A model generated the notes under the pieces. That model did not search any database, was not told the origin of the DNA, and saw only the letters and a list, made by a program, of their open reading frames with translations. A stretch of 64,000 nucleotides of DNA from a virus. This document shows, in pieces, positions 1 to 64,000 of the stretch. The stretch is from the IMG/VR virus record IMGVR_UViG_3300036831_000050, positions 1 through 64,000 of that record; one strand, 5' to 3'. Position 1 is the stretch's first letter, and every line of letters starts with the position of its first letter. A program made the position numbers and the translations under genes.

Positions 1-107
1 TCTACCTGGGCGTCTATTTGTGCGTCCTGACCTGCCGGTTCCTGCGGTCCAACCAGTAGGCAACCAGGCCGACCACCCACGAAAGAACCGAAGGGAGCTA
101 CACACAA

Positions 108-1046
108 ATGGACGCCCTGGTAGAGCGCGCACTGGCCGAAGTGGCGGCCGTCGAGGACGAGGACCGCCGCCAACAGCTCATGCGCGAGAGCAACCCCGCG
201 CTGGGTCAGTATTTCCGCCGTCACCCGCACGACCTTGAAGAGGTGGCCTTCCAGCTCTTCGACATCGCCTGGGACGACATGATGCAGGAGGACATCGTGC
301 CTCGCATCATCGACGTGAAGAACGTCGGTCTCGGGGACGTGGACTGGGTGGACGAAGACCTGCGCGGCATGCGGGCCTACTTCCAGGGCAAGGGCGGCCA
401 GATTCTCAGCGACATGCTGCGCTACCAGCGCACGCTCATGCCGCGCGAGGAGATGGCCGTCGCCATCGACCTGCACCGCGACGAGATCGAGCTGGACTTC
501 TGGAACAGCTTTCAGAAGTTGCAGGACCAGGCGAACGAGAAGATTCGCCAGCTCCCTGTCACGCGACTGGTCCAGCTCATTCAGTCCGGCATCACTGCCG
601 GGACGACGTACGGGACCTTCCCGGCCGCCAACCTGACAGCCAACAACATCGACCCGATCATCGACTTCGTTGCACAGCGGTCGAAGGGTCAGGTCACGTT
701 GCTCGGCTCGCGCAACGCGGTGCGCATTCTGTCCAACCTGGGCGTGCAGTTCGGCCCCAACGTGGCGGAGCGCATCTTCAACGCCGGTCAGGTCGGCGTC
801 TACAAGGGCTACCCCATCGTGGAGGTTGAGAACTTCGAGGACTTCTCGGGCAACCTCGTCCTTCCGGTCAACGAGATTTGGGTCGTTGGCCAGAACGCGG
901 GTCGCCTGACCTACTTCGGACAGGACGCCAAGGTGCAGCAGCTTCCGCGCCCCGGCTTCTACGTCCGGTGGGAGACCGCGCGGGACGCGGGCATGCTGCT
1001 CTACGGCATCGGCCGTGGACGGCTTGGCCGACTGGTCTTCACCTAA
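108..1046 (+). CDS. Major capsid protein (probable HK97 fold)
   Basis: 312 aa with a GGGAG RBS, first gene of the structural block. C-terminal 'GQVGVYKGYPIVEVEN...LPVNEIWVVG' resembles HK97-fold capsid A-domain strands. Followed by a hairpin. Confidence 0.7.
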   Translation: MDALVERALAEVAAVEDEDRRQQLMRESNPALGQYFRRHPHDLEEVAFQLFDIAWDDMMQEDIVPRIIDVKNVGLGDVDWVDEDLRGMRAYFQGKGGQILSDMLRYQRTLMPREEMAVAIDLHRDEIELDFWNSFQKLQDQANEKIRQLPVTRLVQLIQSGITAGTTYGTFPAANLTANNIDPIIDFVAQRSKGQVTLLGSRNAVRILSNLGVQFGPNVAERIFNAGQVGVYKGYPIVEVENFEDFSGNLVLPVNEIWVVGQNAGRLTYFGQDAKVQQLPRPGFYVRWETARDAGMLLYGIGRGRLGRLVFT

Positions 1047-1058
1047 GACGCGAGACAA

Positions 1059-1093
1059 GGGCGGCGGCGGAACCGAACAGGTGGCCGCCGCCC
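1059..1093 (+). terminator. GC-rich hairpin after capsid gene (probable terminator/attenuator)
   Basis: GGGCGGCGGC (1059-1068) pairs with GCCGCCGCCC (1084-1093); no U-tract. Confidence 0.45.
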
Positions 1094-1125
1094 ACACACC
1101 CCGGACCACAGGAGGAGTAACGGAG

Positions 1126-2031
1126 ATGGAAGCAGCAACGGTCCCCGGCGCAGAGCAGCTTGAGAAGCGCCTCTACCGCAACAACACCGCTGGATACCTC
1201 GGCGTCGTCAAGCTGGACCACAAGGGCGACCCGTACGGGGAGAACGTGGACCCGCACGGCACGGTCTGGCTCAGTGACGCAGAGGCGACCCTGACAGCAC
1301 GTGCACCTCGCAAGCCTGAGGACAACCCCTTCGAGGAGCAGATGTTCGTCATGCAGGACTCCGAGACCGGCCGTCGCGAGGAGGTGCCCATGCGGCCCCT
1401 CACACTGGCGGACGACGACGGGCGGTTCGTGCCCGACGAGCGTTACACGCCAACTCAAGCCGAACGGGAAGCTCAGGCCCAGGCCACTCGCCCCGTTCAG
1501 CACTCGGCGGCGGCGAGCGACGCCGCGCCTCCCGCGCCGCCATCGACCGGCTCGGAGAACGCCCAGTCCGTTCCGCCTCCCACGCCGCCAGTGGCGCCGC
1601 AGACGGCCGCCGTACCCTCTCCCCGGTCCGAGCGTGCCCCGCTGTCCTCCCCGGCGCCGGAGGCGGGCATCTCAGGCGCCCACGTGGCCACAGAGGCCGA
1701 TGAGCCGGTCGAGAGCTGGACGGAGCCGCCAGCGGCCCCCGGACAGGTGCTCACAGGCTCTCTCGCGGGCGACGACGGCCCGACCGACGCGCCGGACGCC
1801 ACGAACCACCCCGGCGCCGGTAACGGGCCAACTGCCGGTCAGGCGCAAGCCGCACCGCAGCAGCCCGGTGCCGAGGAGCACGCCGCCGCCGTGGACCCGG
1901 CCGTGGGCGAGGAGACCGGAGCCGCCAGGCCCCCGGTCCAGCCGCAGCCGGAGGGCGAGTACGCCCAGGCCGAGGAAGTGGGGTCACCCGACGCCCCGGC
2001 CGCCAATGACGAGCCATTGATCGGAGGGTAG
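1126..2031 (+). CDS. Hypothetical protein, globular N-terminus plus Pro/Ala/Glu-rich disordered tail
   Basis: ATG at 1126 preceded by AGGAGG; low-complexity C-terminal two-thirds. Confidence 0.7.
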   Translation: MEAATVPGAEQLEKRLYRNNTAGYLGVVKLDHKGDPYGENVDPHGTVWLSDAEATLTARAPRKPEDNPFEEQMFVMQDSETGRREEVPMRPLTLADDDGRFVPDERYTPTQAEREAQAQATRPVQHSAAASDAAPPAPPSTGSENAQSVPPPTPPVAPQTAAVPSPRSERAPLSSPAPEAGISGAHVATEADEPVESWTEPPAAPGQVLTGSLAGDDGPTDAPDATNHPGAGNGPTAGQAQAAPQQPGAEEHAAAVDPAVGEETGAARPPVQPQPEGEYAQAEEVGSPDAPAANDEPLIGG

Positions 2032-2033
2032 TC

Positions 2034-2855
2034 GTGAGCGCAGTTGCCGAGAAGACCGAACCGCTGGGTGTTCTACTCGGCAACCCGCGCCCGCACATGC
2101 AGGTCGAGCATGTGGTGAAGAACGAGGACGGCGAGGTGGTGTCACGTACCCGCGTCGCCGTCCCCCACCCCTTCCTGAAGCAGAGCATCACCCAGGTGAA
2201 CATGTGGAATGGGGTCACCGACCCGGAGCGGGTCAAGCACACGCTGTCAACTGACAACGACCGGGTGCTCACCGGCCTGGCGGCGATTCTCGGCACAGAG
2301 CTTCAGGACTACGCCGTCGCCATTCGCGAGATCGAGGACTTGCTGCACCCGCATGCGGGCGGTGCCAAGCCGACGTGGGTGGACTGCAACGACGAGGGTC
2401 TGGCTCGCGCCATCGAGAAGGTCTACGGCAGTCACATCGGCCAGCCGACGAACCTCCTGACCAACGCCGGTCGGGACGCGCTGCACCACCAGAGCTACGA
2501 CACGACCGCGCCGCCTGCGCAGTTCAACTACATCGCCCTGACGGCGAGCGTGGTGGCGCCTGCGGTTGGTGACACCGCCCTGACAGGCGAGATCGCGACG
2601 GTCGGCGGCGGTCTGATTCGCGCGCAGGCCACCTTCGCGCACACGGTCGGGACGAACACGTCCACGCTGACCAAGACCTTCACGGCCAACGGCACAGACG
2701 CTCTGCCGGTCACCGTCGCCCAGATCGGCGTGTTCAACGCGGCGGGACCGCCTGTCGCCGGAACCATCGTGTTCCACACGGCGCTGGGATCGACCATCAC
2801 GTTGAACGTGTCAGGTGACAGCATCACCGTCACTGAGACCGTTACGGAAGGGTAG
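2034..2855 (+). CDS. Virion structural protein (collar/fibre-anchor-like C-terminal domain)
   Basis: C-terminal 'YIALT..APAVGDTALTGEI...IGVFNAA..GTIVFHT' resembles phage collar/fibre-anchor beta domains; lies in the structural operon. Confidence 0.55.
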   Translation: MSAVAEKTEPLGVLLGNPRPHMQVEHVVKNEDGEVVSRTRVAVPHPFLKQSITQVNMWNGVTDPERVKHTLSTDNDRVLTGLAAILGTELQDYAVAIREIEDLLHPHAGGAKPTWVDCNDEGLARAIEKVYGSHIGQPTNLLTNAGRDALHHQSYDTTAPPAQFNYIALTASVVAPAVGDTALTGEIATVGGGLIRAQATFAHTVGTNTSTLTKTFTANGTDALPVTVAQIGVFNAAGPPVAGTIVFHTALGSTITLNVSGDSITVTETVTEG

Positions 2856-2866
2856 GCGAGCCAGGC

Positions 2867-4795
2867 GTGGGCCGCCTGCGCTACGACAACTCGGTAGGGA
2901 CGCTCGGGACCGCACTGGGCGGTCTCGTCGGTGACACGGTAGTCAACTTCCAGGCCGCACCGGCATGGGCGACGCTGGCGCAGGGCGACTACATTCCGCT
3001 GGTCATTGACCCCCCCGGCGCGTCGCCCAATGGCAACTACGAGGTAGTTTACGTTACGGCGTACACGGCCGGTGACACTCACGCGACCATCAAGCGTGGG
3101 CAGGAGGGCACTGTGCGCGTGGCCCACGCCAATGGCGCCGTGTGGATGGTGGCGGCCACCAAGCATGACATTCCCGGCCACATCGTCGTGCCGAAGATGC
3201 TGCTGACCTTTGGCCACTCCTATGCCCAGGGCAATGGTCTGACCAACTCCGGCTTCCAGAAGAACAACCGGCAGTCCACGCGACTGGCGCAGGCTCTCGG
3301 CGCGCAGGAGACCAACTACGGCGTGGGTGGTTCCTGTCTGTGCTTCGAGAACTCCTCCGGCGTGACAGGCGTGGCCGCTACGGGCGGCTGGCCGACCATT
3401 CTTCAGAAGTTCGCCCCGACACTCGGCTCTCCGTACCTGACACCGCTCGGCGCCGTGCTGCTGGAGTACGGCGTCAACGACTACTGCATGTTCGACACGG
3501 GCGCGCACTTCCAGACCGTCTTTCAGGCGGTGCTCCAGGGAGTCGTTGACCGCCTCCGCTGCGCCAAGATTTTCGAGGACACCGACGCCTCTGTCACCTA
3601 CCCGTCGGGTAGCTGGTCAACGTCCACGTTCAGCAGCGGCACTGTCAACTCGGGCACGACGATGCACAGCTCGAATGCCACTGTCGCCACCGTGCAGATC
3701 GCGTTGCCTGCCGACTACAACGGCGAGGCACTGGTCTTCGGCGTGGTGCTCAACGGTGGCGCCCCGGCGCCCTGGTCCACAGTGGCCGCGTGCTCCATAG
3801 CCGCCACTGACCACCTCGGCACGAACATCGGGAACCTTGACATGAAGGCGATTTGGGTGGCCTTCAACAATGCCACGACCAACCATCACAACCCGATGGC
3901 CACTCTTCGCGTTCCGGCAGGCACGCTCCCGGCCGGGGCGCAGAACATCACCCTGACGTACACGAACCCCGGTGCCAACTCACTCTGGTTCGACTGGTGG
4001 GGCATCGAGGCTGACGTGCCACCGCCGATCATTCTCGAAGCTCCGTTCCGCTTGCCGACTGCCGGTTACACCGCGCTCGGCCCCAGCTCCAGCCGCCCCT
4101 ACACGATTGATGACACGGGCATCGCCAACATCTTGGCCTCGCTGCACGCGGTGGCCGCGATCTACACCGATGGTCGGGTGTTCGTGGCCGACGGTGCCGA
4201 TGCGATCATCAACAAGCAGGCCGCGTACATAACGTCTGACAACGTGCACCCCAACCCCGCTGGAACGGGGATCGTGGCTCAGTACAACTTCAGCGCCCTG
4301 GCCAACTTCCTCTTCGACAACCCGACTGACGCGCTGAGGACCCAGAACAGCCAGGCCGCCAAGCCCAGCATCGCTACGGCCGCCAAGGCTTACCAGACAA
4401 CTCTCACCTCGCCGTTCATCAACGGCTGGAACAAGATCAACGTGGACACCATCATTCACGACGATGGTGGCAACATGGACCTGACAAACCACCGCTACGT
4501 GTGCCCAACCGACGGCATCTACGACGCAACCGGCCAGCTCCTCCTCGCCAACCAGGCGTCCGACTCGAACTACCTGGCACTCTACGTCAACGGCACGCGG
4601 CTCTCGGACGGCATCTGCACGCGCACCTCGGTGGGTGCCACCGGGACGCTCTGGGCGCTGACGGTCCACGCACGCTTCAAGTGCAAGGCGGGCGACTACA
4701 TCGAGCTGTTCTTCAACACCGCCAACACTACGGCCGCGTTTGAGTCCGGTGGTGACGCGGCCAACGACTACCTTGACGTGGTGAGGGTCGAGTAG
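2867..4795 (+). CDS. Virion appendage with SGNH/GDSL hydrolase domain and C-terminal C1q-like domain
   Basis: SGNH blocks FGHSYAQG, NYGVGG, EYGVND and DNVHPN. C-terminal 'DTIIHDDGGNMDLTNHRYVCPTDGIY...KAGDYIELF' fits the C1q/TNF-like pattern. Confidence 0.75.
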   Translation: MGRLRYDNSVGTLGTALGGLVGDTVVNFQAAPAWATLAQGDYIPLVIDPPGASPNGNYEVVYVTAYTAGDTHATIKRGQEGTVRVAHANGAVWMVAATKHDIPGHIVVPKMLLTFGHSYAQGNGLTNSGFQKNNRQSTRLAQALGAQETNYGVGGSCLCFENSSGVTGVAATGGWPTILQKFAPTLGSPYLTPLGAVLLEYGVNDYCMFDTGAHFQTVFQAVLQGVVDRLRCAKIFEDTDASVTYPSGSWSTSTFSSGTVNSGTTMHSSNATVATVQIALPADYNGEALVFGVVLNGGAPAPWSTVAACSIAATDHLGTNIGNLDMKAIWVAFNNATTNHHNPMATLRVPAGTLPAGAQNITLTYTNPGANSLWFDWWGIEADVPPPIILEAPFRLPTAGYTALGPSSSRPYTIDDTGIANILASLHAVAAIYTDGRVFVADGADAIINKQAAYITSDNVHPNPAGTGIVAQYNFSALANFLFDNPTDALRTQNSQAAKPSIATAAKAYQTTLTSPFINGWNKINVDTIIHDDGGNMDLTNHRYVCPTDGIYDATGQLLLANQASDSNYLALYVNGTRLSDGICTRTSVGATGTLWALTVHARFKCKAGDYIELFFNTANTTAAFESGGDAANDYLDVVRVE

Positions 4796-40317: not shown

Positions 40318-40325
40318 TGAGGCAA

Positions 40326-41203: not shown

Positions 41204-41220
41204 TGTTGCACTGTACTACA
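41204..41220. promoter_or_regulatory. 17-bp operator copy (TGTTGCA-CTG-TACTACA)
   Basis: Intergenic, upstream of the HTH gene. Confidence 0.55.
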
Positions 41221-41228
41221 GGTGGCGG

Positions 41229-44881: not shown

Positions 44882-45111
44882 TACACGCTCTCCTCTTGGT
44901 GGTGGACACTGGCGGCGGGAAGGTCGCCTAGCACGGCGCCGAGATCGGCCTCGGCCGCCTCGCGCGTGCGGTAGGTCATGAACTCGCCCCGGTTGGTGGC
45001 GTAGACCTTGATGACGGCCTTGCCGCCGCACTCGATGACGAACTCGGCCGGTACGGTGGCGGCGATGGCCTCGGCCGTGGCCTTGCCGGTGGTGTAGGTG
45101 ACGGCACTCAT
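44881..45111 (-). CDS. Small hypothetical protein
   Basis: Coupled ORF. Confidence 0.5.
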   Translation of the reverse strand: MSAVTYTTGKATAEAIAATVPAEFVIECGGKAVIKVYATNRGEFMTYRTREAAEADLGAVLGDLPAASVHHQEESV

Positions 45112-45269
45112 GCTGGTGTCACGTCCACCAGACCGACGATGTGGAAGTTGGATAGCGCCGACTCCACGTCCAGCGCGATGCCAGCGGCATCGACATCGCC
45201 GTCCTCGATGTAGAAGTCGTCGTCCTCCTCGATCTCGACCTGCACGCGAATCTCAACAACCACACTCAT
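45108..45269 (-). CDS. Small acidic protein (53 aa); not in ORF track
   Basis: MSVVVEIRVQVEIEEDDDFYIEDGDVD...; ATGA-coupled at both ends. Confidence 0.5.
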   Translation of the reverse strand: MSVVVEIRVQVEIEEDDDFYIEDGDVDAAGIALDVESALSNFHIVGLVDVTPA

Positions 45270-46483: not shown

Positions 46484-46499
46484 TCGGTAGGGCGGAGAG

Positions 46500-46516
46500 T
46501 GTAGCAGCGTGCCACA
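46500..46516. promoter_or_regulatory. 17-bp operator copy (TGTAGCA-GCG-TGCCACA) overlapping a leftward extended -10 (TGCTACACT)
   Basis: Intergenic upstream of ruvB; embedded in a longer inverted repeat CGGAGAGTGT...ACACTCTCCG. Confidence 0.65.
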
Positions 46517-46538
46517 CTCTCCGCACTGTCGTGGTTGG

Positions 46539-47594
46539 TCAGACGCCGAGCAGCTTGCGGAGCTGCCGGTTCAGCACCTCCATGCGGGTCTCGACATCGC
46601 CAACCTCGCTCTTGAGCGCGCCCTGGTACTCGCCCAGCTTGCGCTTGAGCTGGTCCAGCTTCCCGTAGTGGTGCTTCATGACATCTTCGCGGACGCCCCG
46701 CTTACGGGCATCGCCGGAAGTGTCGTTGGGGTTGACTGGCCGGAGCAGGTCAGCGACGGTGGCGATCTCCTCCTCAAGCTCCTCCATGATCGTGGTCATG
46801 AACGACCTACGAATCAACTCACGCTCGCTGGCACCGTCTGCCATCGGAGCGTAGTAGAGGAACGCCCGACCTTCGGGCTTGTAGAGGCTGTTCAGGAACT
46901 CGGCCAGCGCGTCCAGCGTCCTGCGGTGGCGCTCCAGCACGAAGTAGATCGACTGACGCGGCCCACCGATGGGAGTGCCGCTGAGGCCGACCTGATTGCC
47001 GTACGTCTTGCCGGTCTTCTCATCGACGCGGCCCTCATCGTGCACGTTGACGATGTAGTCACGGACCATCTCCCTGACCTTGGCGCCAGTGATGCGCTTG
47101 GCGTTCTGGTCAACGCGGGTCTGGATGCTGTCCATGATGGCCACGACCGTGGGCCGGTTGGCACCTTCGAGCGCCTTGAAGCCGACGGTCTCGCTGGCCT
47201 TGGAAAACCAGACCTTGACGGCGCCGGAGTACAGGACACGCTCGTCGGAGGTGTCACGCTCAACACGTGTCACCTGATAGATCACGTCCTCGTTGTTCTC
47301 CAGCACCAGCCGAATGTCGGTCTCGACCTTCGTGCCAGTCTTGTCATCGACGTACGTCCCGGCCTTCTCCTCGTCCCGTACGGCGCGCTTGAACGCATCG
47401 ACGGCGCGGGGATCGCGGGGAAGCGGCTGTGGGTCCAGACCTGCCATGCCCCAGCGCCGGATGACCCGGCTCAGAGACACGTCCTCCATGGGGACGCTGG
47501 ACCACACGATGTAGCCCAGCGGCTTGACCTTGGAGTCCTTCGACACGGCGACCATGCCCTTCAGGACATCGGGGGTGGTCATTGTTGCGGACAT
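46539..47594 (-). CDS. Hypothetical protein of the type accompanying phage MoxR-vWA modules (DUF6744-like)
   Basis: 'GYIVWSSV...GLD...LP...AVDAFKRA' and 'YFV' motifs; family name recalled, not searched. Confidence 0.5.
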   Translation of the reverse strand: MSATMTTPDVLKGMVAVSKDSKVKPLGYIVWSSVPMEDVSLSRVIRRWGMAGLDPQPLPRDPRAVDAFKRAVRDEEKAGTYVDDKTGTKVETDIRLVLENNEDVIYQVTRVERDTSDERVLYSGAVKVWFSKASETVGFKALEGANRPTVVAIMDSIQTRVDQNAKRITGAKVREMVRDYIVNVHDEGRVDEKTGKTYGNQVGLSGTPIGGPRQSIYFVLERHRRTLDALAEFLNSLYKPEGRAFLYYAPMADGASERELIRRSFMTTIMEELEEEIATVADLLRPVNPNDTSGDARKRGVREDVMKHHYGKLDQLKRKLGEYQGALKSEVGDVETRMEVLNRQLRKLLGV

Positions 47595-47635
47595 GTGGTC
47601 ACGCTCCTAACGGTGGGATTGCAGTTGGTCGGTTG

Positions 47636-49333
47636 TCATGTCAGGTGGACGGCCAGCTCGGCGGTGGCGTGGGACGGGTCGTTCAGCTCGAAGTCCTCGA
47701 CCCGGACCACGTAGTCGGAGTAGCCCTCCAAGTAGGGGAAGCGGCGCGAGTCGCGCCCGATGGCGATTCCGAAGATGCGCACACCCATCTCGTTGAGTCG
47801 GTTGCGCAGACGCTTGTCAGCGTCGCCGTACGGTGCGTCACCGTCACCGATGAGCACGATGTCGGCCTTCTTGAACTCGGGTGCGCGCTGCATGATGTCA
47901 GCGGCGCCCTTGACGGCCTGGTATGGCGCGGTGCCACCTCCGAAGAAGTGACTGGCCATGTCCACGATCTTCTGTGCGTCCATGGCCTCGCGCCCCTTGA
48001 ACTCGGTGACGAACACCTCGTCCATGTCCGCCCATTCGACACAGGCGAAGTCACGCTTCTCCAGCCGAGCGATGTGGAGTAGGCACATGCACACGGCCCG
48101 TGCCCAGATGTTGCGCTCGCCCTTCATGGAGTAGCTGGCGTCCGGCGCCACGATGATCGGCCCGCGTCCGGCGTGCTCCTCACCGACGGTGCTGAACTGA
48201 AGCAGCTCTTGGTCGCCGTACCGCTGGAGGAAGCCCAGCTCCAGATCGTCGTCTGCGAACTCGGACAGCTCGGAGCTTAGGACGCGATTCAAGTTGTCCC
48301 CAAACTCAACGTCAACGATCTCGTCGTTGCCGCCGACGATGCGCTTCGCACGCCGGAACCGAATGTCACGGTCCAGCCGACCGAACCGCTCGGCCATGGC
48401 GCGGAGCTGCGGGTTCTCGGCCCACATCTGGGCGATGGTCAGAGCTTGCTCGGGCGATTCGTAGACCGGCTCGCCCTTGCCTAGACCGCTGCCGAACTTC
48501 GGTACGTTGCTGGCCTGCTCGGCCGCCTCATGGGCAGCCTGGGCGGCCCGCTCGATGGCGGCGAGTGCCTGTGCGTCCATGGGACTGAAGTTGTCGGCCA
48601 CGTCGGCGGCCTGCTGCTGTAGGTCGGCCTGCTGCTGAGCGAGCTGGTCGATCTCCGCTGTCAGGTTCGCGGGCACCGGCTGTCCGGCGTCGGCAAGCTC
48701 CTGAGCGTGCCCCTGAGCCTGTCCGAGCTGGTCGATGGTGTCACGGACCTGCTGCTCAAGGTCGCTGTACTCCTGCGACTCTTGCGACTGCTCAAGCAGC
48801 TCGTCGGTCAGGATGCGGCGCAGTTCCTTGGCGAACGCCATGGTGGCGATGCCAGCCATGGAAGCGTCGTCCATGGTCGTGTTGCGAGCGGCTGAGTGCG
48901 AGTCGCTGGCGATCAGCTTCGGCATGATGCGCTTGTGCAGCTCGACGCGCGGGTCAACCGGCTCGATGATCTCGGGCCGGAAGTGAGCGTGGTAGCTGTA
49001 GAACACGTCCCGGCACAGCTCGGCCCATGCGTGGTAGGCCGGAGCGTTCTCGGTCGCGTCCTTGTGAGCCTTCATGGCCTCTTGGTACGCGATGAACTCT
49101 TCGGGCGTGGCGGCTGTCATGTCGATGGGGTCAGGCTCGGGCACTTCGCGGGGAATCTGCGGCGCCTCATCGACGGCGATGGCCCGGAATCGCGGGCTGT
49201 CATCGCGGAAGTTCTTGTACTGCATGCTGTCCATCGAATCGTGGGTCAGCACGCTGTCAGGCAACTGAAGTTCGGGCGTACCGATCTTGTTGCCGTTCTC
49301 GCCCAGCAGGTCAGTCAGTGAGATGACCGGCAT
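47636..49333 (-). CDS. vWA-domain protein (ViaA/CoxE-like)
   Basis: MIDAS 'GPIIVAPDASYSM', 'GGGT' and 'ADIVLIGDG'; directly downstream of the MoxR ATPase. Confidence 0.85.
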   Translation of the reverse strand: MPVISLTDLLGENGNKIGTPELQLPDSVLTHDSMDSMQYKNFRDDSPRFRAIAVDEAPQIPREVPEPDPIDMTAATPEEFIAYQEAMKAHKDATENAPAYHAWAELCRDVFYSYHAHFRPEIIEPVDPRVELHKRIMPKLIASDSHSAARNTTMDDASMAGIATMAFAKELRRILTDELLEQSQESQEYSDLEQQVRDTIDQLGQAQGHAQELADAGQPVPANLTAEIDQLAQQQADLQQQAADVADNFSPMDAQALAAIERAAQAAHEAAEQASNVPKFGSGLGKGEPVYESPEQALTIAQMWAENPQLRAMAERFGRLDRDIRFRRAKRIVGGNDEIVDVEFGDNLNRVLSSELSEFADDDLELGFLQRYGDQELLQFSTVGEEHAGRGPIIVAPDASYSMKGERNIWARAVCMCLLHIARLEKRDFACVEWADMDEVFVTEFKGREAMDAQKIVDMASHFFGGGTAPYQAVKGAADIMQRAPEFKKADIVLIGDGDAPYGDADKRLRNRLNEMGVRIFGIAIGRDSRRFPYLEGYSDYVVRVEDFELNDPSHATAELAVHLT

Positions 49334-49393
49334 GTTGTGCCTCCAGTGCCGCCGCGCCGATGTGCGCGGCGGCCGGTCGTCGGTGTCAGAGTC

Positions 49394-50629
49394 CTACTCG
49401 TCGTCATCATCGTCGTCGGTGCCGGACAGGTAGCCGACCACCCACTTGTGATAGCTCTTGATCTCGGCTACAACTTCGCGGGTGACAGACACGTCCTCGC
49501 CCTCGGCCTCGCCTTCGGTGATTTGGTCCTTGCCCTCGTCAAGCAGTTTCTTGAGCTGAGTGGCGAACTGCCACCCTTCGCCCATCTTGTCACGGCGCTC
49601 GGCCTCGTCCAGCTTGGCCGCGTCCTGCTCCAGCTTCGCCATCTCGGCCCGTACGGCCTCCATGGCCTCGCGCAGCCGCCTGGCCTTGCGAGTGAACTTG
49701 CTGGCGAGATCGGTCACGATGTCGCGAGCTGGCTTGTGGTGGTCAGGCAGACTCCACGCCATGTGCTCGGCAACGAGGAAGTCGTCCATGACCACGGTGT
49801 CACGGCCGCGCAGCCAAGCGCGAGACCGCATCGCCCGCCAGATGTCACGCTTGCGCCGCTGGGAGACCATGAAGCCAGCCTCCAAGCACTTCTGCTCCAG
49901 TTCGCCCATCTTCTCCAGCACCGGCTCGGGCACTGGGATGGCGCGGGCAGCGTCGCGGATCGTCTTGATGTCGTCCAGCGTGAGCGGTTCGAGATCAGTG
50001 GAGTCGATGCCGTCCACGTCATAGCCGAGCTGGATCAGTGACACCGACTTGCGTCCCTCCGGCGTCTGCACCGGCTGAACGACCTTGGTGATGGCGATTC
50101 GGTCGCGGAACGCCTGCAAGTCCTCGCGGTCAGGCAGCTCGTTCGATGACATCAGAATCGTGATGAGCTGCGAGCAGTCGATGACCTTACCGCCGATCTT
50201 CAGTTGGCGCTTAGCGAAGATGTCCAGCAGCGGGTTGAGCATCGGCGGCGACCCCTTGAAAATCTCGTCCAAGTAGGCCAGGTTCGCCTCGATGAGCGAG
50301 CCAGCGGTGATGCGGGCGGTCCGGCCTTCCTTCATGGCCATCACGTCCTTCTCGCCCAGCAGCTCGGACACGCTCTGGTCCTTCGCCAGGAGGTGCGTGA
50401 ACAGCTCGGCGGCGTCGATGCAGTAGTCGGTCAGCAGCTCGATGAGCCAGGTCTTGCCGACGCCTGGGTCGCCCAGGAAGAGCAGGTCGATACCTGAGAT
50501 GATCGCGATGGCCAGCAGCTCGATCTCCTCAGTTCGCTCGACGTTGTTCCGAGCGAGGAAGCCGGTCTTCGGGTTGAAGATGGCGTCGAACCGAGCGTGT
50601 AGCTGGCTCGTAACGGTGGTCGTGGTCAT
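49394..50629 (-). CDS. MoxR-family AAA+ ATPase (RavA-like)
   Basis: 'LFLGDPGVGKT', 'YLDEIFKGSPPMLNPLL', 'SSNELP', 'AFRDR' and 'SQRR'. Confidence 0.88.
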   Translation of the reverse strand: MTTTTVTSQLHARFDAIFNPKTGFLARNNVERTEEIELLAIAIISGIDLLFLGDPGVGKTWLIELLTDYCIDAAELFTHLLAKDQSVSELLGEKDVMAMKEGRTARITAGSLIEANLAYLDEIFKGSPPMLNPLLDIFAKRQLKIGGKVIDCSQLITILMSSNELPDREDLQAFRDRIAITKVVQPVQTPEGRKSVSLIQLGYDVDGIDSTDLEPLTLDDIKTIRDAARAIPVPEPVLEKMGELEQKCLEAGFMVSQRRKRDIWRAMRSRAWLRGRDTVVMDDFLVAEHMAWSLPDHHKPARDIVTDLASKFTRKARRLREAMEAVRAEMAKLEQDAAKLDEAERRDKMGEGWQFATQLKKLLDEGKDQITEGEAEGEDVSVTREVVAEIKSYHKWVVGYLSGTDDDDDDE

Positions 50630-50668
50630 GCGAGTCTCCAGTTCGCTAGTGGTTGACGGGAGTCAGAG

Positions 50669-50704
50669 TGTAGCACGGTGCCACAGGTGTGGCATCGCGC
50701 ATCA
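50669..50704. promoter_or_regulatory. Tandem 17-bp operator copies (TGTAGCA-CGG-TGCCACA; TGTGGCA-TCG-CGCATCA) overlapping a leftward extended -10
   Basis: Intergenic upstream of the MoxR gene. Confidence 0.65.
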
Positions 50705-50908
50705 GGTTGTGGCTCGTTCGATGTCGCTTGCAAGTCTCTGCATTGCTCGCGCAATCGCCTTCGCCAGGTTCGGTGGCGTGATTCGTGGTCCATCGAAGGA
50801 CACCATGGGTCCGGGCATGAATCTCGCGACCCGTGCCACGCGCTCGCCTTCGTCATCGAGCACGTGGTAGACGCCCTCGTACTGCTTACTGACGCGGTAG
50901 GTAATCAC
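50702..50908 (-). CDS. Small hypothetical protein
   Basis: GTGA-coupled start (VITYRVSKQ...). Confidence 0.45.
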   Translation of the reverse strand: MITYRVSKQYEGVYHVLDDEGERVARVARFMPGPMVSFDGPRITPPNLAKAIARAMQRLASDIERATT

Positions 50909-51627
50909 GGCACTGTCACCACCCCGCGAGCGGCCCACTCCTGAGCAAGCTCGGCCTCATGCTGGACCTGCTCGGCGCAGCTCTCGGCCATGGACGCGGC
51001 CTCGGCCTTGATGTAGCCCTCGTCGGGTTCGCCAATGAAGCCCCACACGGACTCCATGACTTCGCCGCCCTCACGGTCACGTATCACGATGCCGAACACG
51101 TAGCCCTGGAGCCACTGGTCCAGTTCGTTGACGCGAGCCTCGGCGTACTTGGTGGCGTCATCGACCGAGCCGTTCCACTCGTCATCGAGCTGCTTCTGTG
51201 TGAAGCAGATGGCACAGTTCGGGCCGTCCTCCATGACGTACAGGCGAGCACCAGTTGACCCGTAGTCCGAGAAGAACAGCGGGATGGTGAGCACGGCGTC
51301 GTAGTTGTGACGCATGTAGGTCGGCAGGTCGCACTCGATGTAGCCGTTGCCCTCGCAGTTCGGGCAGTTCTTCTCGATTGGGTGGTCGTCGGCATCGAGC
51401 ACTGGTTCGTCGTCCGACTCGACGGTGCCCTCACCCTCACAGTTCGGGCAGTCGATGGTCAGCTCCGGCTCGGAGATGCGTTCGTCGCCTTCCCACGTGC
51501 CGTCGTAGACCCACGAATAGATCGTGCCAGCGTTGTCGTTGTCCTGTGGGCTAGACACGGGATCGTCGTCGGGAACGATCTCGACCCACACACCAGCGTG
51601 TTCGTATGCCTCGGCAGGTTCGATCAT
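50905..51627 (-). CDS. Acidic protein with DnaJ-type Zn finger
   Basis: CPNCEGEG...CPNCEGNG; very D/E-rich. Confidence 0.65.
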   Translation of the reverse strand: MIEPAEAYEHAGVWVEIVPDDDPVSSPQDNDNAGTIYSWVYDGTWEGDERISEPELTIDCPNCEGEGTVESDDEPVLDADDHPIEKNCPNCEGNGYIECDLPTYMRHNYDAVLTIPLFFSDYGSTGARLYVMEDGPNCAICFTQKQLDDEWNGSVDDATKYAEARVNELDQWLQGYVFGIVIRDREGGEVMESVWGFIGEPDEGYIKAEAASMAESCAEQVQHEAELAQEWAARGVVTVP

Positions 51628-51628
51628 G

Positions 51629-52057
51629 TCAGCTCCTAATCAGGTAGTCGTCACCGTCGTAGGTGATGGTTGTGTAGTCCTGGCGCAGTTCGTCGGCCGC
51701 CGCCTCCCAGTCGATGTGATTGAACGGCCAGCGGTTCGTGTCGTCCGAGATGTAGCCGAGATCGGTGGCCAGCTCCTCCGCGTACTCCGCGAAGTCGTCC
51801 TCGGCAATGAGCGTGGGTTCGTGGTTGTTGGCGTGCCACTCCAGCGTGTCAGGTTCGGCCGGATCAAGGCCCAGCTCGCCGCATAGGCTCACGTACTTCT
51901 CGACGTACTCCTGCTGCTCGTCTTCGGCCAGGAACTTCTCCGTGGCCTCGGCAACCTCACCGTAGGACATGCCTTCGGTGTCGGGCACGCTGGACCCCAT
52001 CTCGGCAATGCGTTCGCGCCACTCTTCAGCGATCTCTCGCAGGTCCAGTACGTTCAT
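51629..52057 (-). CDS. ArdA-like acidic anti-restriction protein
   Basis: Highly acidic. 'FAEYAEEL...GY.......NHIDWEAAADELRQDY' resembles the ArdA C-terminal 'YIDYEA.ARDL' motif. Confidence 0.55.
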   Translation of the reverse strand: MNVLDLREIAEEWRERIAEMGSSVPDTEGMSYGEVAEATEKFLAEDEQQEYVEKYVSLCGELGLDPAEPDTLEWHANNHEPTLIAEDDFAEYAEELATDLGYISDDTNRWPFNHIDWEAAADELRQDYTTITYDGDDYLIRS

Positions 52058-53376
52058 GCTGTCACCTCCACGCCAGCGACGCCAGCGCCATAGGTCTCGG
52101 GAATGAGTCGGCGGTACAGGTAGGTTCGCAGGGCACGTGTCACCACATCGGCGGTGCCGTATCGCGCCTTCTCGCCACCCATGGTCCCTTCGTCTGGGTC
52201 CATGCCCAGGTGGATGAAGACGCCGGTATCGGAGTAGCCCGCTTCGCGCAGTGCGTTGACGAACATGCTCGGCACGTAGTACCGCTCGCGAATGTGCTGT
52301 TCGAGATGGTCAGTGCCGAACGCCTCAGCACGCGGTTCGTTGGGATCGCGCAGCGCGCAGCCCCAGCAATCGCCGCCACTGGGCAACTTGAGTCCGTTCG
52401 TAACCAGCTCGTTGACGGCATCGGCCACGAACTTGTTGATGCGCTTCTTCTTCTTCTCCAACTGGCGCTCGCGGCGAGCATTGCGCTCGATCTCTCGCCG
52501 GTTCGGACGCGGGGCATAGCCCTCGGCGTTGACTTCCATGCCATCGGTGAAGGGCACGCGGTTGCGTTCGTCCCACTCCCGGTAGAGCTTCCGCGCAGCC
52601 TTGACAGCTCGGAACTCCTCCAGATAGGCGTCCTGCCACGCTTCGCGGGTCTCGAACCGTTCGAGCATCGCTGTCATCTTCGCGTAGCCCTCGGTTCGGT
52701 TGCGACCCCAGCCGCCGCCGTTCATGGCCTCAGACCACGCGCGGTGCTGGCGCTCGAACAGCGCGCAGTGTGGGCATTGCTCCCACTTGTGTTCGTCGGC
52801 ATCGGGGAACGTGGTCTCCGGCCGTGGGGCGTGATAGTTGTACTGCTCTTCGCGCCAGGCGGTTGCCACGTGCACGACACGCCGGACCTTCGCGGAGAAG
52901 TACCCGTCGCAGTGTTCGAGCGTGATGTCATCGTCGCGATGCTCGCCCTCACGAATGAACACCTCGCGGGTCTCCGGTTCGCAGGTCTCGGTGCCAGCGA
53001 TGCAGCCCTCGGTGGGCTTGACAGGCTCAGGGCCAGGGTCGAGCGCGTGGAACGGCTTTGGGATCGTTCGCTGCGGCCAACGCTCCGGGCGTGGGTCGTC
53101 TGGGTCCGGCTCAGCGCGCACGTACCAGTCGCCGCGCTCGCTCACAATGTGGGGCGTGACGGCCGAGAGTCTGTCCTTCGTGGTCACAGTTCGCCAGCCG
53201 CCGCTATTGAGCGTGACGCGGCCGTCCCTGTGGAACGTCGCGATGTCTGTGGCGTGCAACCTCAGCGCGTAGGTGTCCTCGTCGCGCCGTTCGATGCGAG
53301 TGTTGTTGGCGTACGGCTTTGACCGCTTATCGCGGGCACTTGAGACAAGCTGTTCGCACTGTGCGAAATCGAGCAT
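52054..53376 (-). CDS. Hypothetical phage early protein
   Basis: Start MLDF after AGGAG; 'LHATDIA.F...G.VTLNSGGWRTVTTKDRL' phage motif. Confidence 0.65.
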   Translation of the reverse strand: MLDFAQCEQLVSSARDKRSKPYANNTRIERRDEDTYALRLHATDIATFHRDGRVTLNSGGWRTVTTKDRLSAVTPHIVSERGDWYVRAEPDPDDPRPERWPQRTIPKPFHALDPGPEPVKPTEGCIAGTETCEPETREVFIREGEHRDDDITLEHCDGYFSAKVRRVVHVATAWREEQYNYHAPRPETTFPDADEHKWEQCPHCALFERQHRAWSEAMNGGGWGRNRTEGYAKMTAMLERFETREAWQDAYLEEFRAVKAARKLYREWDERNRVPFTDGMEVNAEGYAPRPNRREIERNARRERQLEKKKKRINKFVADAVNELVTNGLKLPSGGDCWGCALRDPNEPRAEAFGTDHLEQHIRERYYVPSMFVNALREAGYSDTGVFIHLGMDPDEGTMGGEKARYGTADVVTRALRTYLYRRLIPETYGAGVAGVEVTA

Positions 53377-53398
53377 GATGGTCTCCTGTGTAGGTGGG

Positions 53399-53707
53399 TC
53401 AGTTGTCGTCCAGCGAGTACAGTCCGAACTCGCCGTCGTTCCAGCTCCAAGCGTGTCCTTCGAGCGGACGCTGTTCGTTGAGCCAGCTCTCTGCGTCGTC
53501 TGCGCAGTCCACCAGCCGCTCGAACTCGTCCACGTCCAGCGGGGGTTCGGTGCTCGGCCCCATGGCCGCGAGATGGCGCCGCGCGAGATCGCTCGCCTCG
53601 TCGTCCTCCCAGCCGAACTCGGCCGCAACTTGGACCGCACGCGCGAGCGCGTACTGGCCCCAATGGCCGTCCACGTAGCACCCAGGTTCGGGCTTAGCAT
53701 CGGTCAC
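53399..53707 (-). CDS. Acidic hypothetical protein
   Basis: GGAG RBS; D/E-rich, ends 'WNDGEFGL'. Confidence 0.6.
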   Translation of the reverse strand: MTDAKPEPGCYVDGHWGQYALARAVQVAAEFGWEDDEASDLARRHLAAMGPSTEPPLDVDEFERLVDCADDAESWLNEQRPLEGHAWSWNDGEFGLYSLDDN

Positions 53708-58343: not shown

Positions 58344-58762
58344 CACCCGGCATGCCAGCCCAGGACGACGACGAGCCGTGCCCCTGGTGCCAGTGCCCGC
58401 CCGAGAAGTACGACGGGCACGCCTGCGACGAGTATCCGCCCCAGCCCGAGCACTGTCACCATGAGTGGGTGCTGGGCAACGATGACTGCATACACCGCTG
58501 CGGCACCCGGTGGTCAGAGCTTCACCCCGACCACCCCGACATGCTGCTGGACCCCGAGCCTGGCTGGGAGGGTAAGACGGTCACGGCCAGGGCGCTGGAG
58601 CGGTCGGCCGAGGAGCTACGTGCGCTGGCCGACTGGGTACGCGGCGTGAGGACCACGCACTACATCATCGACAAGTTCATGGCCCGCCTGTGCCTGCTGG
58701 TCACCTTCGCCGCTGGCATGGCCATCGGGGCACTGGTCATGGTCCTGGCCATCTTCGGCTAG
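58340..58762 (+). CDS. Cys-rich protein with C-terminal TM anchor
   Basis: GTGA-coupled; hydrophobic C-terminus. Confidence 0.55.
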   Translation: MTPGMPAQDDDEPCPWCQCPPEKYDGHACDEYPPQPEHCHHEWVLGNDDCIHRCGTRWSELHPDHPDMLLDPEPGWEGKTVTARALERSAEELRALADWVRGVRTTHYIIDKFMARLCLLVTFAAGMAIGALVMVLAIFG

Positions 58763-62932: not shown

Positions 62933-63259
62933 ATGACGAATATCGCCAAGTGGGAGGAAGGGACCGAGATCACACTGGACAGCGAGGTTGAGGCCGCCTC
63001 CGCAGGCTGGGTCCTCAACTACGCGAGCGTCCTGCGCATCGGTAGCGCGGTCGCGGTCCACATCGAGGCGACGAGCGATGGGACCGGCACCGGCCACATC
63101 TGCACGCTCCCTCCCCAGTTCGCCCCCGGCGCCCTGGTGACCACCTCGGACGGTCTGTTCACCATCGCGCAGGACGGCACCGTGACGCGGCTCGCGGGCG
63201 GCGCGGCCGGAGTCGGCCGCATCAACGTCAACTACGCCGCTGGCGAGGCATCGCCCTGA
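62933..63259 (+). CDS. Small beta-rich protein resembling tail-fibre C-terminal domains
   Basis: 'ICTLPPQFAP...FTIAQDGTV' motif; AGGAGG RBS. Confidence 0.55.
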   Translation: MTNIAKWEEGTEITLDSEVEAASAGWVLNYASVLRIGSAVAVHIEATSDGTGTGHICTLPPQFAPGALVTTSDGLFTIAQDGTVTRLAGGAAGVGRINVNYAAGEASP

Positions 63260-63287
63260 TCTGCACCTGACGATTCGGACTCGTCAT

Positions 63288-63326
63288 GGGGGCGGCGCCT
63301 TTGGTAGGGGCGCCGCCCCTCTTTTT
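63288..63326 (+). terminator. Intrinsic terminator
   Basis: GGGGCGGCGCC/GGCGCCGCCCC stem followed by TCTTTTT. Confidence 0.8.
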
Positions 63327-63347
63327 GTCCAGATAGCGGGATAGCTC

Positions 63348-63376
63348 TTGCGAGCCTTCGGGAACACGTGTACTCT
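63348..63376 (+). promoter_or_regulatory. SigA-type promoter TTGCGA-N17-TACTCT overlapped by SOS-like box GAAC-ACGT-GTAC
   Basis: 17-bp spacing; the box occupies 63362-63373. Confidence 0.5.
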
Positions 63377-63402
63377 CCCGACGGGATGATGAGGACGGCC
63401 GC

Positions 63403-63714
63403 ATGAGCGAGCAGCCAGCGGTGCACCGGCACCCCGAGGCGCCGAAGGTGCACACCGAGCACAAGAAGGCCAACGAGGCCATCGAGAGCTTGCGTGCGGT
63501 GGCGGCCACCCTTCAGCAGGTCGGCAACGAGCTGACCCACACGACGACCGACAAGAAGAAGCTGGAGGAAGAGGTGACCAAGCTCACCGAGCAGGTCGCG
63601 GAGATGGAGGAGCAGGTCGCTCTAGGCGGTGAGGCGCTGGAGGCACTGGAGGACTTCAAGCGTGACCTATGTGACAGGGACGAATTGCTGCAACGAACGG
63701 TGGGGAGGCCATGA
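63403..63714 (+). CDS. Coiled-coil hypothetical protein
   Basis: GAGGA RBS; heptad pattern. Confidence 0.6.
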   Translation: MSEQPAVHRHPEAPKVHTEHKKANEAIESLRAVAATLQQVGNELTHTTTDKKKLEEEVTKLTEQVAEMEEQVALGGEALEALEDFKRDLCDRDELLQRTVGRP

Positions 63715-64000
63715 CATTCGATGACGAGCGCCGGACTCTGGAGCTGGCGAGAGAGTGGAAGGAAGGGCGCATCGTCGCGGTGCACCCGAGCATCGGGCGA
63801 ATGCTCAACTGCGCACTGACAGCCAACGGCGAGGACCCGGTGCCATTCGGGCTGGCCACCAACAGCCAGGCGCCGTCGTTGATCGACCTGATTCGTGGTG
63901 AGTACGAGTGTGCACCACGTGACACATCGGGCGGGAAAAAGGCAGCGGCACGTCGATTCGCGCACCAACTGAGCGCGAGCGTGCATGGGAGGGCACATGT
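63711..64000 (+). CDS. Hypothetical protein, truncated by the window end
   Basis: ATGA-coupled; frame stays open to the end of the window. Confidence 0.45.
   Translation, partial: MTFDDERRTLELAREWKEGRIVAVHPSIGRMLNCALTANGEDPVPFGLATNSQAPSLIDLIRGEYECAPRDTSGGKKAAARRFAHQLSASVHGRAH

What the first reader, a model, noticed from the sequence alone, without database searches (positions are those of the whole stretch)
1..64000. Strand-specific elimination of ATCC: GGAT-containing sites all point one way
Seen: in + strand genes, Ile followed by a C-starting codon is written ATT-C, ATA-C or ATC-TTG (e.g. ~4130, ~7400, ~14025) rather than ATC-C, despite high GC. By eye I found only two ATCC on the + strand: 42679 (forced by Trp-Met codons of a minus gene) and 58434 (TATCC). 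GGATG/GGATC is common on the + strand, including inside minus-strand genes that use ATC-C freely (39378, 39444, 40032). The bias therefore follows the genome strand, not the coding strand. Known: Type III restriction enzymes need two inversely oriented asymmetric sites, and T7 escapes EcoP15 because its sites are co-oriented. Inference: the genome has been selected to evade a host defence that recognises an asymmetric CATCC/GATCC-containing motif.
Basis: partly seen in the sequence, partly recalled or inferred. Interest (0 to 1): 0.75.

Follow-up and report, generated by a model that had tools for sequence, protein, structure and literature searches.

The report
One-strand purge of ATCC in phage
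This soil phage has removed the four-letter word ATCC from one DNA strand while keeping its mirror word GGAT there, most likely to escape a bacterial restriction system that only cuts when its sites face each other.

Summary
The window has 2 ATCC and 72 GGAT on the + strand. The whole 82,353-bp virus record has 2 and 84, against about 160-170 expected for each by codon-preserving shuffles. The bias follows the genome strand, not the coding strand. In rightward genes Ile before C is never ATC (0 ATC, 119 ATT, 21 ATA). In leftward genes G|GAT is 0 against 104 G|GAC. One of the two surviving ATCC is a forced Trp-Met, TGG-ATG.

The minimal motif is the 4-mer, because every 5' and 3' extension is purged. 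The same genome has 17 palindromic hexamers at 0-2 copies. It also has several asymmetric hexamers removed from both strands. GGAT is the only site removed from one strand only.

Diverged relatives share the purge in patches: G002 has 3 ATCC to 43 GGAT. Thirty-one more distant relatives have normal counts.

Best reading (0.65): evasion of an orientation-dependent, Type III-like defence that recognises GGAT. This is the T7/EcoP15I principle, already in print, so I class it as a new, unusually clean member of a known kind. The host and the defence system were not identified.

The scan had noted the same purge in an overlapping window of this same genome.

The parts
1..64000 (.). Whole window, which is the first 64 kb of an 82,353-bp virus record. 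ATCC occurs 2 times and GGAT 72 times on the + strand. The purge covers rightward genes, leftward genes and uncalled stretches alike.
42679..42682 (+). Surviving ATCC no. 1. On the - strand it is TGG-ATG (Trp-Met) in the leftward ORF 42237-42968. No synonymous change can remove it.
58434..58437 (+). Surviving ATCC no. 2. It reads TAT-CCG (Tyr-Pro) in ORF 58181-58762, whose coding signal is weak (GC3 minus GC2 = 0.18). It would be removable if that ORF is real.
38025..53700 (-). Block of leftward genes. Here the coding strand carries ATCC freely and GGAT almost never. This is the reverse of the rightward genes, and it shows that the bias follows the genome strand. Over all 24 called leftward genes: ATCC 27, GGAT 1; G|GAT 0 against G|GAC 104.
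39235..40257 (-). Tyrosine integrase gene (PF00589).
4130..4135 (+). Example of ATC-TTG (Ile-Leu), with the rare Leu codon TTG used to avoid ATC-C. The same is seen at 7400-7405 and 14026-14031. In + genes Ile-Leu is ATC-TTG 13 times, ATT-CTN 26 times and ATC-CTN 0 times.

Best explanation
The phage lineage has been selected to keep every copy of the asymmetric 4-bp site GGAT pointing the same way along its genome. ATCC has been removed from the + strand, which means GGAT has been removed from the - strand.

The selective agent is most likely a host restriction system that marks only one strand of an asymmetric site. Such a system cuts foreign DNA only, or mainly, when two unmodified sites face each other. 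Candidates are a Type III R-M system or a mechanistic relative (Type ISP, or the BREX-related MANTIS system). With all sites in direct repeat, no inverted pair exists and cleavage is not triggered.

Shown: the one-strand purge, its independence of coding strand, its origin in selection on synonymous choices (and probably on Trp-Ile/Met dipeptides), its patchy distribution among relatives, and the restriction-avoidance context.

Inferred: that the agent is a host defence, that it reads GGAT, and that it is orientation-dependent.
For: (1) Size and strand rule. There are 2 ATCC against 84 GGAT in 82 kb, with about 160-170 expected for each. The sign is the same in + genes (1/41), - genes (1/27) and uncalled DNA (0/17). 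ATCC and its extensions are the only strongly significant k-mers (k = 3-6) whose genome-strand asymmetry has the same sign in both gene blocks.

(2) Selection, not mutation. In + genes Ile before C is ATC 0 / ATT 119 / ATA 21, while elsewhere it is ATC 565 / ATT 49 / ATA 26. In - genes G|GAT is 0 against G|GAC 104, while after a non-G it is GAT 64 / GAC 189. The 17 ATCC of relative L004 in the two best-aligned stretches correspond in its sister L002 (83-86% nt identity) to ATTC, ATCT, ATAC, ACCC, GTCG and others, with changes at all four positions. ATTC excess is seen only in + genes (145/33, against 11/24 in - genes).

(3) Amino-acid level. Trp-Ile/Met, the only dipeptide that forces GGAT, occurs once in - genes against 5.9 expected (Poisson P = 0.019). 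In the unpurged relative G001 it occurs 4 times against 4.9 expected. Three of the 5 ATCC left in G000 and G002 are TGG-ATG.

(4) Restriction context and internal control. Seventeen palindromic hexamers stand at 0-2 copies against 16-89 expected (GCCGGC 0/89, CCGCGG 0/61, CAGCTG 0/57, and so on). Asymmetric hexamers are removed from both strands (GAGACG/CGTCTC 0/0, CACGAG/CTCGTG 0/0, GACCTC/GAGGTC 2/2). Only GGAT is removed from one strand.

(5) Relatives. Counts below are ATCC/GGAT in G000 orientation. G002 (portal 74% aa identity) 3/43, L022 3/17, L002 2/8, L021 0/6 and G003 8/24 are purged or part-purged. G001 119/175, L007 27/24 and L020 15/14 are not. On the portal tree the states are interleaved. 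Thirty-one more distant loci (446 kb) have 3.66 ATCC and 3.05 GGAT per kb, and none falls below 2.15 and 1.55 per kb.

(6) No phage gene explains it. None of 60 G000 ORFs scanned with Pfam is a DNA methyltransferase or Res protein. No G000 gene is shared with purged G002 but absent from unpurged G001.

(7) Precedent. All 36 EcoP15I sites of T7 are co-oriented (PMC3874151, passages). Strand-biased depletion has been reported for MANTIS and Type III sites (bioRxiv 10.64898/2026.09.23.753747, section 10 read). Type III systems with 4-bp sites exist: CACC and CGCC (PMC8259958, abstract and section 14 read). A GGAT-centred m6A motif has been assigned by inference to a Type III Mod in Mycoplasma hyorhinis (PMC13736764, passages).
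Against: The host is unknown, and no cognate system or methylation was observed.

Two ATCC remain. Under a strict inverted-pair rule each would still make the genome cleavable.

The retained orientation is itself depleted: 84 against about 160, and 41 against 108 in + genes. A strict Type III mechanism does not predict this. It fits a graded orientation preference, additional GGATC/GGATG-type enzymes, or history.

Every clearly purged relative lost the same orientation. So I have no case showing that the choice of strand is arbitrary, as the model allows. L004 (21 ATCC / 5 GGAT) looks opposite. But unpurged relatives also have more ATCC than GGAT in the portal gene (L020 4/0, G001 3/0, L007 6/2), so L004 is ambiguous.

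The same orientation could be explained by ease. Purging the other strand would leave about 21 forced Trp-Ile/Met sites instead of about 6. This is an argument, not a test.
Confidence: 0.65

Rival explanations
1. A strand-specific nicking enzyme that reads GGAT, from either the host (as a defence) or the phage itself (as in T5-like nicked genomes). Nicks on one strand are repairable. Sites on both strands would give double-strand breaks, so the sites become co-oriented.
For: It predicts the same one-strand purge. It also predicts the mild depletion of the retained orientation, since fewer nicks are better. An HNH protein (PF13391, E = 5e-5) is encoded at 73274-73705 of the record.
Against: The HNH gene is also present in unpurged G001 (44% identity). 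It sits two genes before the terminase, the usual place of packaging HNH proteins (this placement is my recollection). GGAT positions are not conserved between the sisters L002 and L004: 0 of the 3 GGAT of L004 and 0 of the 5 of L002 in the aligned stretches are shared. That argues against functional nick sites. No natural GGAT nickase in such a role turned up in my searches (listings only).
Confidence: 0.12
2. An intrinsic polar process of the phage exposes one particular strand, on which ATCC is harmful. Examples are rolling-circle replication that leaves one strand single-stranded, or the direction of packaging or injection. The harmful agent could be a nuclease or binding protein specific for single-stranded DNA.
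For: The bias is genome-wide and ignores transcription. All purged relatives lost the same orientation relative to the conserved gene map.
Against: Close relatives with the same gene order and the same replication and packaging genes lack the purge (G001, L007, L020 and 31 distant loci). The sisters L002 and L004 differ in state at 83-86% nt identity. No genome-wide GC skew exists, and AT skew simply follows the coding strand. A 4-mer is very short for such a signal. The co-occurring purge of many restriction palindromes points to restriction.
Confidence: 0.1
3. Several separate 5-bp Type IIS systems (GGATC-like, GGATG-like, AGGAT-like) act, rather than one 4-bp orientation-dependent system.
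For: In G001 the depletion is subset-specific. GATCC is at 0.23 and GGATC at 0.61 of expectation, ATCCT is 0 against 30.6 expected and AGGAT is at 0.31, while GGATG and CATCC are at 0.98 and 0.94. So 5-bp specificities of this kind do seem to act within the clade.
Against: Type IIS enzymes cut whatever the relative orientation of their sites (established knowledge). The genome's other asymmetric sites are indeed removed from both strands. In G000 and G002 all four 5' extensions and all four 3' extensions of ATCC are purged on one strand only.
Confidence: 0.08
4. A strand-specific mutational bias, for example deamination of C in ATCC on one strand, or an assembly artefact.
For: ATTC is in excess over GAAT in the window (133 against 59).
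Against: The ATTC excess is confined to + genes and reverses in - genes. Replacements hit all four positions and are synonymous. Leftward genes use GAC in place of GAT, an A-to-G change on the + strand. The purge stops at forced Trp-Met codons. Independent contigs from other samples show the same purge.
Confidence: 0.03

Closest known systems
Phage T7 and EcoP15I (Type III R-M): all 36 CAGCAG sites in one orientation (PMC3874151, passages read; primary papers of 1986 and 1992 seen only as references)
   Same: An asymmetric site is present on one strand only, so the genome offers no inverted pair. This is the same logic of escape.
   Different: All T7 genes are transcribed from one strand (established knowledge, not from a call), so coding bias cannot be separated from selection there. 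Here about 15 kb of leftward genes show the same genome-strand rule. The site here is 4 bp, not 6, the expected number removed is about 160, and the host and enzyme are unknown.
Strand-biased depletion of MANTIS (BREX-related) and Type III sites in Pseudomonas phages (bioRxiv 10.64898/2026.09.23.753747; abstract passages and section 10 read)
   Same: Depletion on one strand is read as evasion of a hemimethylating defence that prefers inverted pairs. That preprint's 'graded' preference, in which direct repeats are weakly restricted, would also explain why GGAT itself is 2-3-fold depleted here.
   Different: MANTIS sites are 6 bp and the hosts are Pseudomonas. Here the site is 4 bp, the virus is an uncultured high-GC soil phage, and the purge is near-total rather than a statistical residual.
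Type III R-M systems with 4-bp sites: DthLIII CACC and FnoB1III CGCC (PMC8259958, abstract and section 14 read); Mycoplasma hyorhinis Mod1, GGAT-centred m6A, assigned by inference (PMC13736764, passages)
   Same: They show that a Type III enzyme can read four asymmetric base pairs, and that GGAT itself has been proposed as a Type III site.
   Different: Those organisms are thermophiles and a mollicute, not plausible hosts of this phage. No link to this phage was tested.
Classical avoidance of palindromic Type II sites by phages (PMC6286503; abstract, results and discussion passages read)
   Same: The same genome removes 17 palindromic hexamers completely, by the same kind of synonymous choice.
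   Different: Palindromes and Type IIS sites are lost from both strands. GGAT is lost from one. That survey reported no systematic strand-asymmetric avoidance for Type I or Type III sites.

Membership tests
One-strand depletion of an orientation-dependent (Type III-like) restriction site | An asymmetric site is present on one strand and absent from the other across the whole genome | tested here: met
   2 ATCC against 84 GGAT in 82,353 bp, with 0-1 ATCC in every 10-kb bin
One-strand depletion of an orientation-dependent (Type III-like) restriction site | The bias is tied to the genome strand, not to the transcribed or coding strand | tested here: met
   + genes 1/41, - genes 1/27, uncalled DNA 0/17; codon-context tables
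One-strand depletion of an orientation-dependent (Type III-like) restriction site | Produced by selection (synonymous, context-dependent choices), not by one mutation type | tested here: met
One-strand depletion of an orientation-dependent (Type III-like) restriction site | The retained orientation is free of selection (about neutral frequency) under a strict inverted-pair rule | tested here: not met
   GGAT is at 0.51 of the shuffle expectation overall, 0.38 in + genes and 0.68 in - genes. This fits a graded preference better than strict Type III.
One-strand depletion of an orientation-dependent (Type III-like) restriction site | The host encodes a system that modifies one strand of this site and cuts at inverted pairs | not testable with these tools
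   Host not found. Genome-contig scans with the portal alignment and the Rpf-like protein found no relative. The record comes from a soil metagenome.
Type IIS / IIG site avoidance | Both orientations of the asymmetric site are removed | tested here: not met
   GGAT is retained 84 times on one strand. By contrast GAGACG/CGTCTC, CACGAG/CTCGTG and GACCTC/GAGGTC are removed from both strands.
Phage genomes with site-specific nicks on one strand (T5-like) | A phage-encoded nickase and nick sites conserved in position | tested here: inconclusive
   The only HNH gene is shared with unpurged G001. None of the 8 GGAT sites in the L004/L002 aligned stretches is shared between the two. Nicks themselves cannot be seen in sequence.
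Polar motifs of the Chi / KOPS kind | The favoured orientation is over-represented | tested here: not met
   GGAT is under-represented, not enriched

The most novel reading that the evidence does not exclude
The purge is the footprint of an as yet undescribed defence of uncultured high-GC soil bacteria. This defence would read only four base pairs (GGAT) and sense site orientation in a graded way: inverted pairs are lethal and direct repeats mildly costly.

The clade would then show the stages of adaptation. First comes a 2-fold loss on both strands (G001, L007, L020). Then comes a total loss on one strand (G000, G002, L022), switching within about 15% nucleotide divergence (L002 against L004).

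If so, one-strand k-mer purges that hold across oppositely transcribed genes could be used to read the specificities of hemimethylating defences directly from metagenomic phage genomes.
Probability: 0.3. Interest if true: 0.7.

Novelty: new member of a known kind. Interest (0 to 1): 0.55.

Why it matters
Escape by co-orienting sites has rested for decades mainly on T7 and EcoP15I. All T7 genes lie on one strand, so coding bias could not be excluded there. A 2018 survey found no systematic strand-asymmetric avoidance (PMC6286503).

This genome gives a much cleaner case. About 160 expected sites are reduced to 2. The rule holds across genes on both strands and across non-coding DNA. It reaches amino-acid choice. 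It switches on and off among close relatives.

It predicts a concrete and testable thing: a defence in the unknown host that reads GGAT and depends on site orientation. It also shows that such specificities can be inferred from uncultured phage genomes alone.

Tried and rejected
Named relatives and host. Megablast and tblastn against 50,697 phage records gave nothing close. The tape measure and the 642-aa protein had no match. The portal had one 9% match. DnaB hits were all under 60% identity (the 25 listed rows 23-28%). The 565-aa protein had only remote hits. Genome-contig scans with the portal alignment and the Rpf-like protein found no relative. No tRNA gene was found. An Atlas look-up of the integrase gave mixed phyla. 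The only host lead is a portal homologue at 72% identity on an NCBI contig labelled as a Solirubrobacteraceae MAG. That is a bin label, not evidence. The Rpf-like ORF matched PF06737 below its cut-off (25.7 against 27 bits), so 'actinobacterial host' remains a guess.

A phage gene behind the purge. None of 60 G000 ORFs (Pfam) and none of 10 ORFs specific to G001 or G002 is a methyltransferase. No gene is shared by G000 and G002 only, but G002 lacks the part that matches 54-74 kb of G000.

Opposite-strand purge. L004 (21/5) looked like one. The portal gene is ATCC-rich in unpurged relatives too, so I dropped it as evidence.

Other one-strand purges. A scan of 31 distant loci gave 4 marginal hits, which I did not follow.

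Single-protein scans of viral contigs with the 1008-aa tail protein and the 565-aa protein found nothing. The capsid alignment found only contigs I already held.

Sequencing runs. One soil run holds the stretch and may be its source. Two further runs hold small shares that I did not lay, so I name no habitat beyond 'soil metagenome'.

Supplementary files of the papers were not opened. The phage panel and the site tables of the MANTIS preprint may contain comparable cases.

Literature searches for a GGAT/ATCC strand bias in phages found none for this motif. I make no claim beyond those searches.

Full report
WHAT THE DNA IS. The window is the first 64 kb of an 82,353-bp virus record with 65.5% G+C. 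A soil-metagenome run holds it, and that run may be its source. It encodes a terminase, a portal-sized protein, a 2075-aa tape measure, a DnaB-like helicase, a PD-(D/E)XK nuclease, RuvB-like and MoxR-like ATPases, a sigma-like protein, a tyrosine integrase, RNase H and an HNH protein. In relatives the last and first genes of the record are neighbours. The record's ends are therefore assembly breakpoints. No named phage is close, and the host is unknown.

THE OBSERVATION. On the + strand the window has ATCC twice, at 42679 and 58434, and GGAT 72 times. The whole record has 2 and 84 (binomial p = 1e-22). Of 120 4-mer pairs, this one is the most asymmetric. Markov models of order 0, 1 and 2 expect 262, 233 and 190 ATCC and 262, 237 and 214 GGAT. 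1000 synonymous-codon shuffles expect 158.9 +/- 8.6 and 158.7 +/- 8.6, and no shuffle fell below 132. A second shuffle with 107 gene calls expects 169.8 and 163.7. So ATCC is about 80-fold depleted and GGAT about 2-fold. As an outside baseline, 31 loci of more distant relatives (446 kb) carry 3.66 ATCC and 3.05 GGAT per kb. This genome carries 0.024 and 1.02 per kb.

THE BIAS FOLLOWS THE GENOME STRAND. In the 83 called rightward genes the coding strand has ATCC 1 (expected 135.5) and GGAT 41 (expected 108). In the 24 leftward genes the coding strand has ATCC 27 (expected 39.5) and GGAT 1 (expected 36.3). The 10.7 kb outside called genes has GGAT 17 and ATCC 0.

Codon context shows how this is achieved. 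In rightward genes, Ile followed by C is ATC 0, ATT 119 and ATA 21, whereas Ile not followed by C is ATC 565, ATT 49 and ATA 26. Ile-Leu is written ATC-TTG 13 times and ATT-CTN 26 times, but never ATC-CTN. In leftward genes, Asp after G is GAT 0 and GAC 104, against GAT 64 and GAC 189 after other bases.

ATCC and its extensions are the only strongly significant k-mers (k = 3-6) whose asymmetry has the same genome-strand sign in both gene blocks. The gene calls are my own crude GC3-based calls. The totals do not depend on them.

MINIMAL MOTIF AND EXCEPTIONS. All four 3' extensions are at 0-1 copies against 38-49 expected: ATCCA 1, ATCCC 0, ATCCG 1, ATCCT 0. All four 5' extensions are at 0-1 against 17-72 expected: AATCC 0, CATCC 1, GATCC 0, TATCC 1.

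Site 42679 is TGG-ATG (Trp-Met) in a leftward ORF and cannot be removed synonymously. Site 58434 is TAT-CCG in a weakly supported ORF. Trp-Ile/Met is the only dipeptide that forces GGAT. It occurs once in leftward genes against 5.9 expected (P = 0.019) and 12 times against 21.3 in rightward genes. In the unpurged relative G001 it is at expectation: 4 against 4.9, and 21 against 19.3. This suggests selection down to the protein level, on small numbers.

SELECTION, NOT MUTATION. The replacements differ by context. They are ATT-C, ATA-C and ATC-TTG in rightward genes, and GAC for GAT in leftward genes, which is an A-to-G change on the + strand. The ATTC excess is confined to rightward genes (145/33, against 11/24). 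Two sister contigs from one sample, L004 and L002, are 83-86% identical over about 4 kb. Seventeen ATCC of L004 in the two best-aligned stretches correspond in L002 to ATTC, ATCT, ATAC, ATGC, ACCC, GTCG and other forms, and none is kept. There is no genome-wide GC skew, and AT skew follows the coding strand.

RESTRICTION CONTEXT: THE INTERNAL CONTROL. Against the codon-shuffle null, 17 palindromic hexamers stand at 0-2 copies where 16-89 are expected: GCCGGC 0/89, CCGCGG 0/61, CAGCTG 0/57, GTCGAC 0/45, GAGCTC 0/44, CTGCAG 0/39, GACGTC 0/37 and others. G001 and G002 share subsets of these. Several asymmetric hexamers are removed from both strands: GAGACG/CGTCTC 0/0, CACGAG/CTCGTG 0/0, GACCTC/GAGGTC 2/2. 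So this lineage answers restriction by deleting sites, and where orientation does not matter it deletes both orientations. GGAT is the one site deleted in one orientation only. That is what an orientation-dependent enzyme would select for.

RELATIVES. The terminase and portal found contigs with 66-89% identical proteins. Counts below are ATCC/GGAT in G000 orientation.
- Purged or part-purged: G002 (63.6 kb) 3/43, with the same rule in both gene blocks; L022 3/17; L002 2/8; L021 0/6; G003 8/24.
- Uninformative: L019 0/1.
- Not purged: G001 (80 kb) 119/175, L007 27/24, L020 15/14.
- Ambiguous: L004 21/5.

G000, G001 and G002 are about equally diverged from one another, at roughly 30-80% protein identity and with the same gene order. 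At that distance synonymous sites should be saturated (my inference). The purge in G000 and G002 must therefore be actively maintained. On a portal tree, with 7 of 8 inner branches well supported, purged and unpurged rows are interleaved. This implies several gains or losses. Thirty-one loci at 42-66% portal identity all have ordinary counts.

Even the 'unpurged' close relatives are about 2-fold low on both strands. G001 shows a narrower pattern: GATCC at 0.23 and GGATC at 0.61 of expectation, ATCCT 0 against 30.6 expected, and GGATG/CATCC at expectation.

No gene is shared by G000 and G002 but missing from G001. However, G002 lacks the part that matches 54-74 kb of G000. None of 60 G000 ORFs, and none of 10 ORFs specific to G001 or G002, is a methyltransferase by Pfam.

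MECHANISM. The best-supported reading is evasion of a defence that modifies one strand of an asymmetric site and cuts at inverted pairs of unmodified sites. A Type III review describes this requirement and the T7 case, in which all 36 EcoP15I sites are co-oriented and T7 is resistant while T3 is not (PMC3874151, passages). A 2026 preprint on the BREX-related MANTIS system reports strand-biased depletion of MANTIS and Type III sites in Pseudomonas phages. It also reports a graded preference in which direct repeats are weakly restricted (abstract passages and section 10 read). Four-base Type III sites are documented (CACC and CGCC; PMC8259958). A GGAT-centred m6A motif has been assigned, by inference, to a Type III Mod of Mycoplasma hyorhinis (PMC13736764).

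Against a strict Type III rule stand the 2-3-fold depletion of the retained orientation and the two surviving ATCC. A graded rule would fit both observations.

All purged relatives lost the same orientation. This is expected if the easier strand is chosen, because the other choice would leave about 21 forced Trp-Ile/Met sites instead of about 6. It also leaves room for a mechanism tied to an intrinsic polarity of the genome.

RIVALS. I considered four: a GGAT nickase (host or phage), an intrinsic polar process, several 5-bp Type IIS systems, and mutational bias or artefact. They are weighed in their own sections. Together I give them about a third of the probability.

VERDICT. The principle is already known, so this is a new and unusually clean member of a known kind. 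The enzyme and the host remain to be found. The scan had noted the same purge in an overlapping window of the same genome.

Noticed in passing
whole window and record: Seventeen palindromic hexamers stand at 0-2 copies against 16-89 expected by codon shuffle: GCCGGC, CCGCGG, CAGCTG, GTCGAC, GAGCTC, CTGCAG, GACGTC, CTCGAG, GGGCCC, CCCGGG, CGATCG, AGGCCT, AGCGCT, ACGCGT, ACCGGT, TCCGGA, GGTACC. TTAA-containing 5-mers are at 0. This is an extreme restriction-avoidance signature. From memory, many of these are sites of actinomycete enzymes.
   Followed up: partly
whole window and record: Asymmetric hexamers are removed from both strands: GAGACG/CGTCTC 0/0, CACGAG/CTCGTG 0/0, GACCTC/GAGGTC 2/2, GGGCTC/GAGCCC 0/0. 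AAGGAG is 0 against 16 expected.
   Followed up: partly
G001 (L012-L016), relative of the window: This 'unpurged' relative has its own narrower pattern. ATCCT is 0 against 30.6 expected. AGGAT is 11 against 36, and 8 of those 11 lie outside called genes. GATCC is 16 against 68. In its leftward genes GATCC is 1 against GGATC 24. GGATG and CATCC are at expectation. This hints at related 5-bp specificities within the clade.
   Followed up: partly
L030 (distant relative, IMG/VR contig of 85.8 kb): CCGAGC occurs once against GCTCGG 25 times (about 17 and 19 expected). This may be another one-strand purge of a different motif, or it may be coding bias.
   Followed up: no
protein P0011: A portal homologue (72% identity) lies on an 82,885-bp NCBI contig labelled as a MAG of Solirubrobacteraceae. 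It is the only hint of a host, and it may be no more than a binning label. The family is large: 481 portal homologues at E <= 1e-20, many on contigs of about 80 kb.
   Followed up: no
window 58883-59437: The Rpf-like ORF noted by the scan matches the transglycosylase-like domain PF06737 only below its curated cut-off (25.7 against 27 bits). No bacterial relative was found by the genome-contig scan.
   Followed up: partly
record 73274-74946 (L001 9274-10946): An HNH protein (PF13391) and an RNase H (PF00075, E = 6e-27) lie just upstream of the large terminase. A DUF1643 protein (E = 4e-39) lies at record 72287-72823.
   Followed up: no
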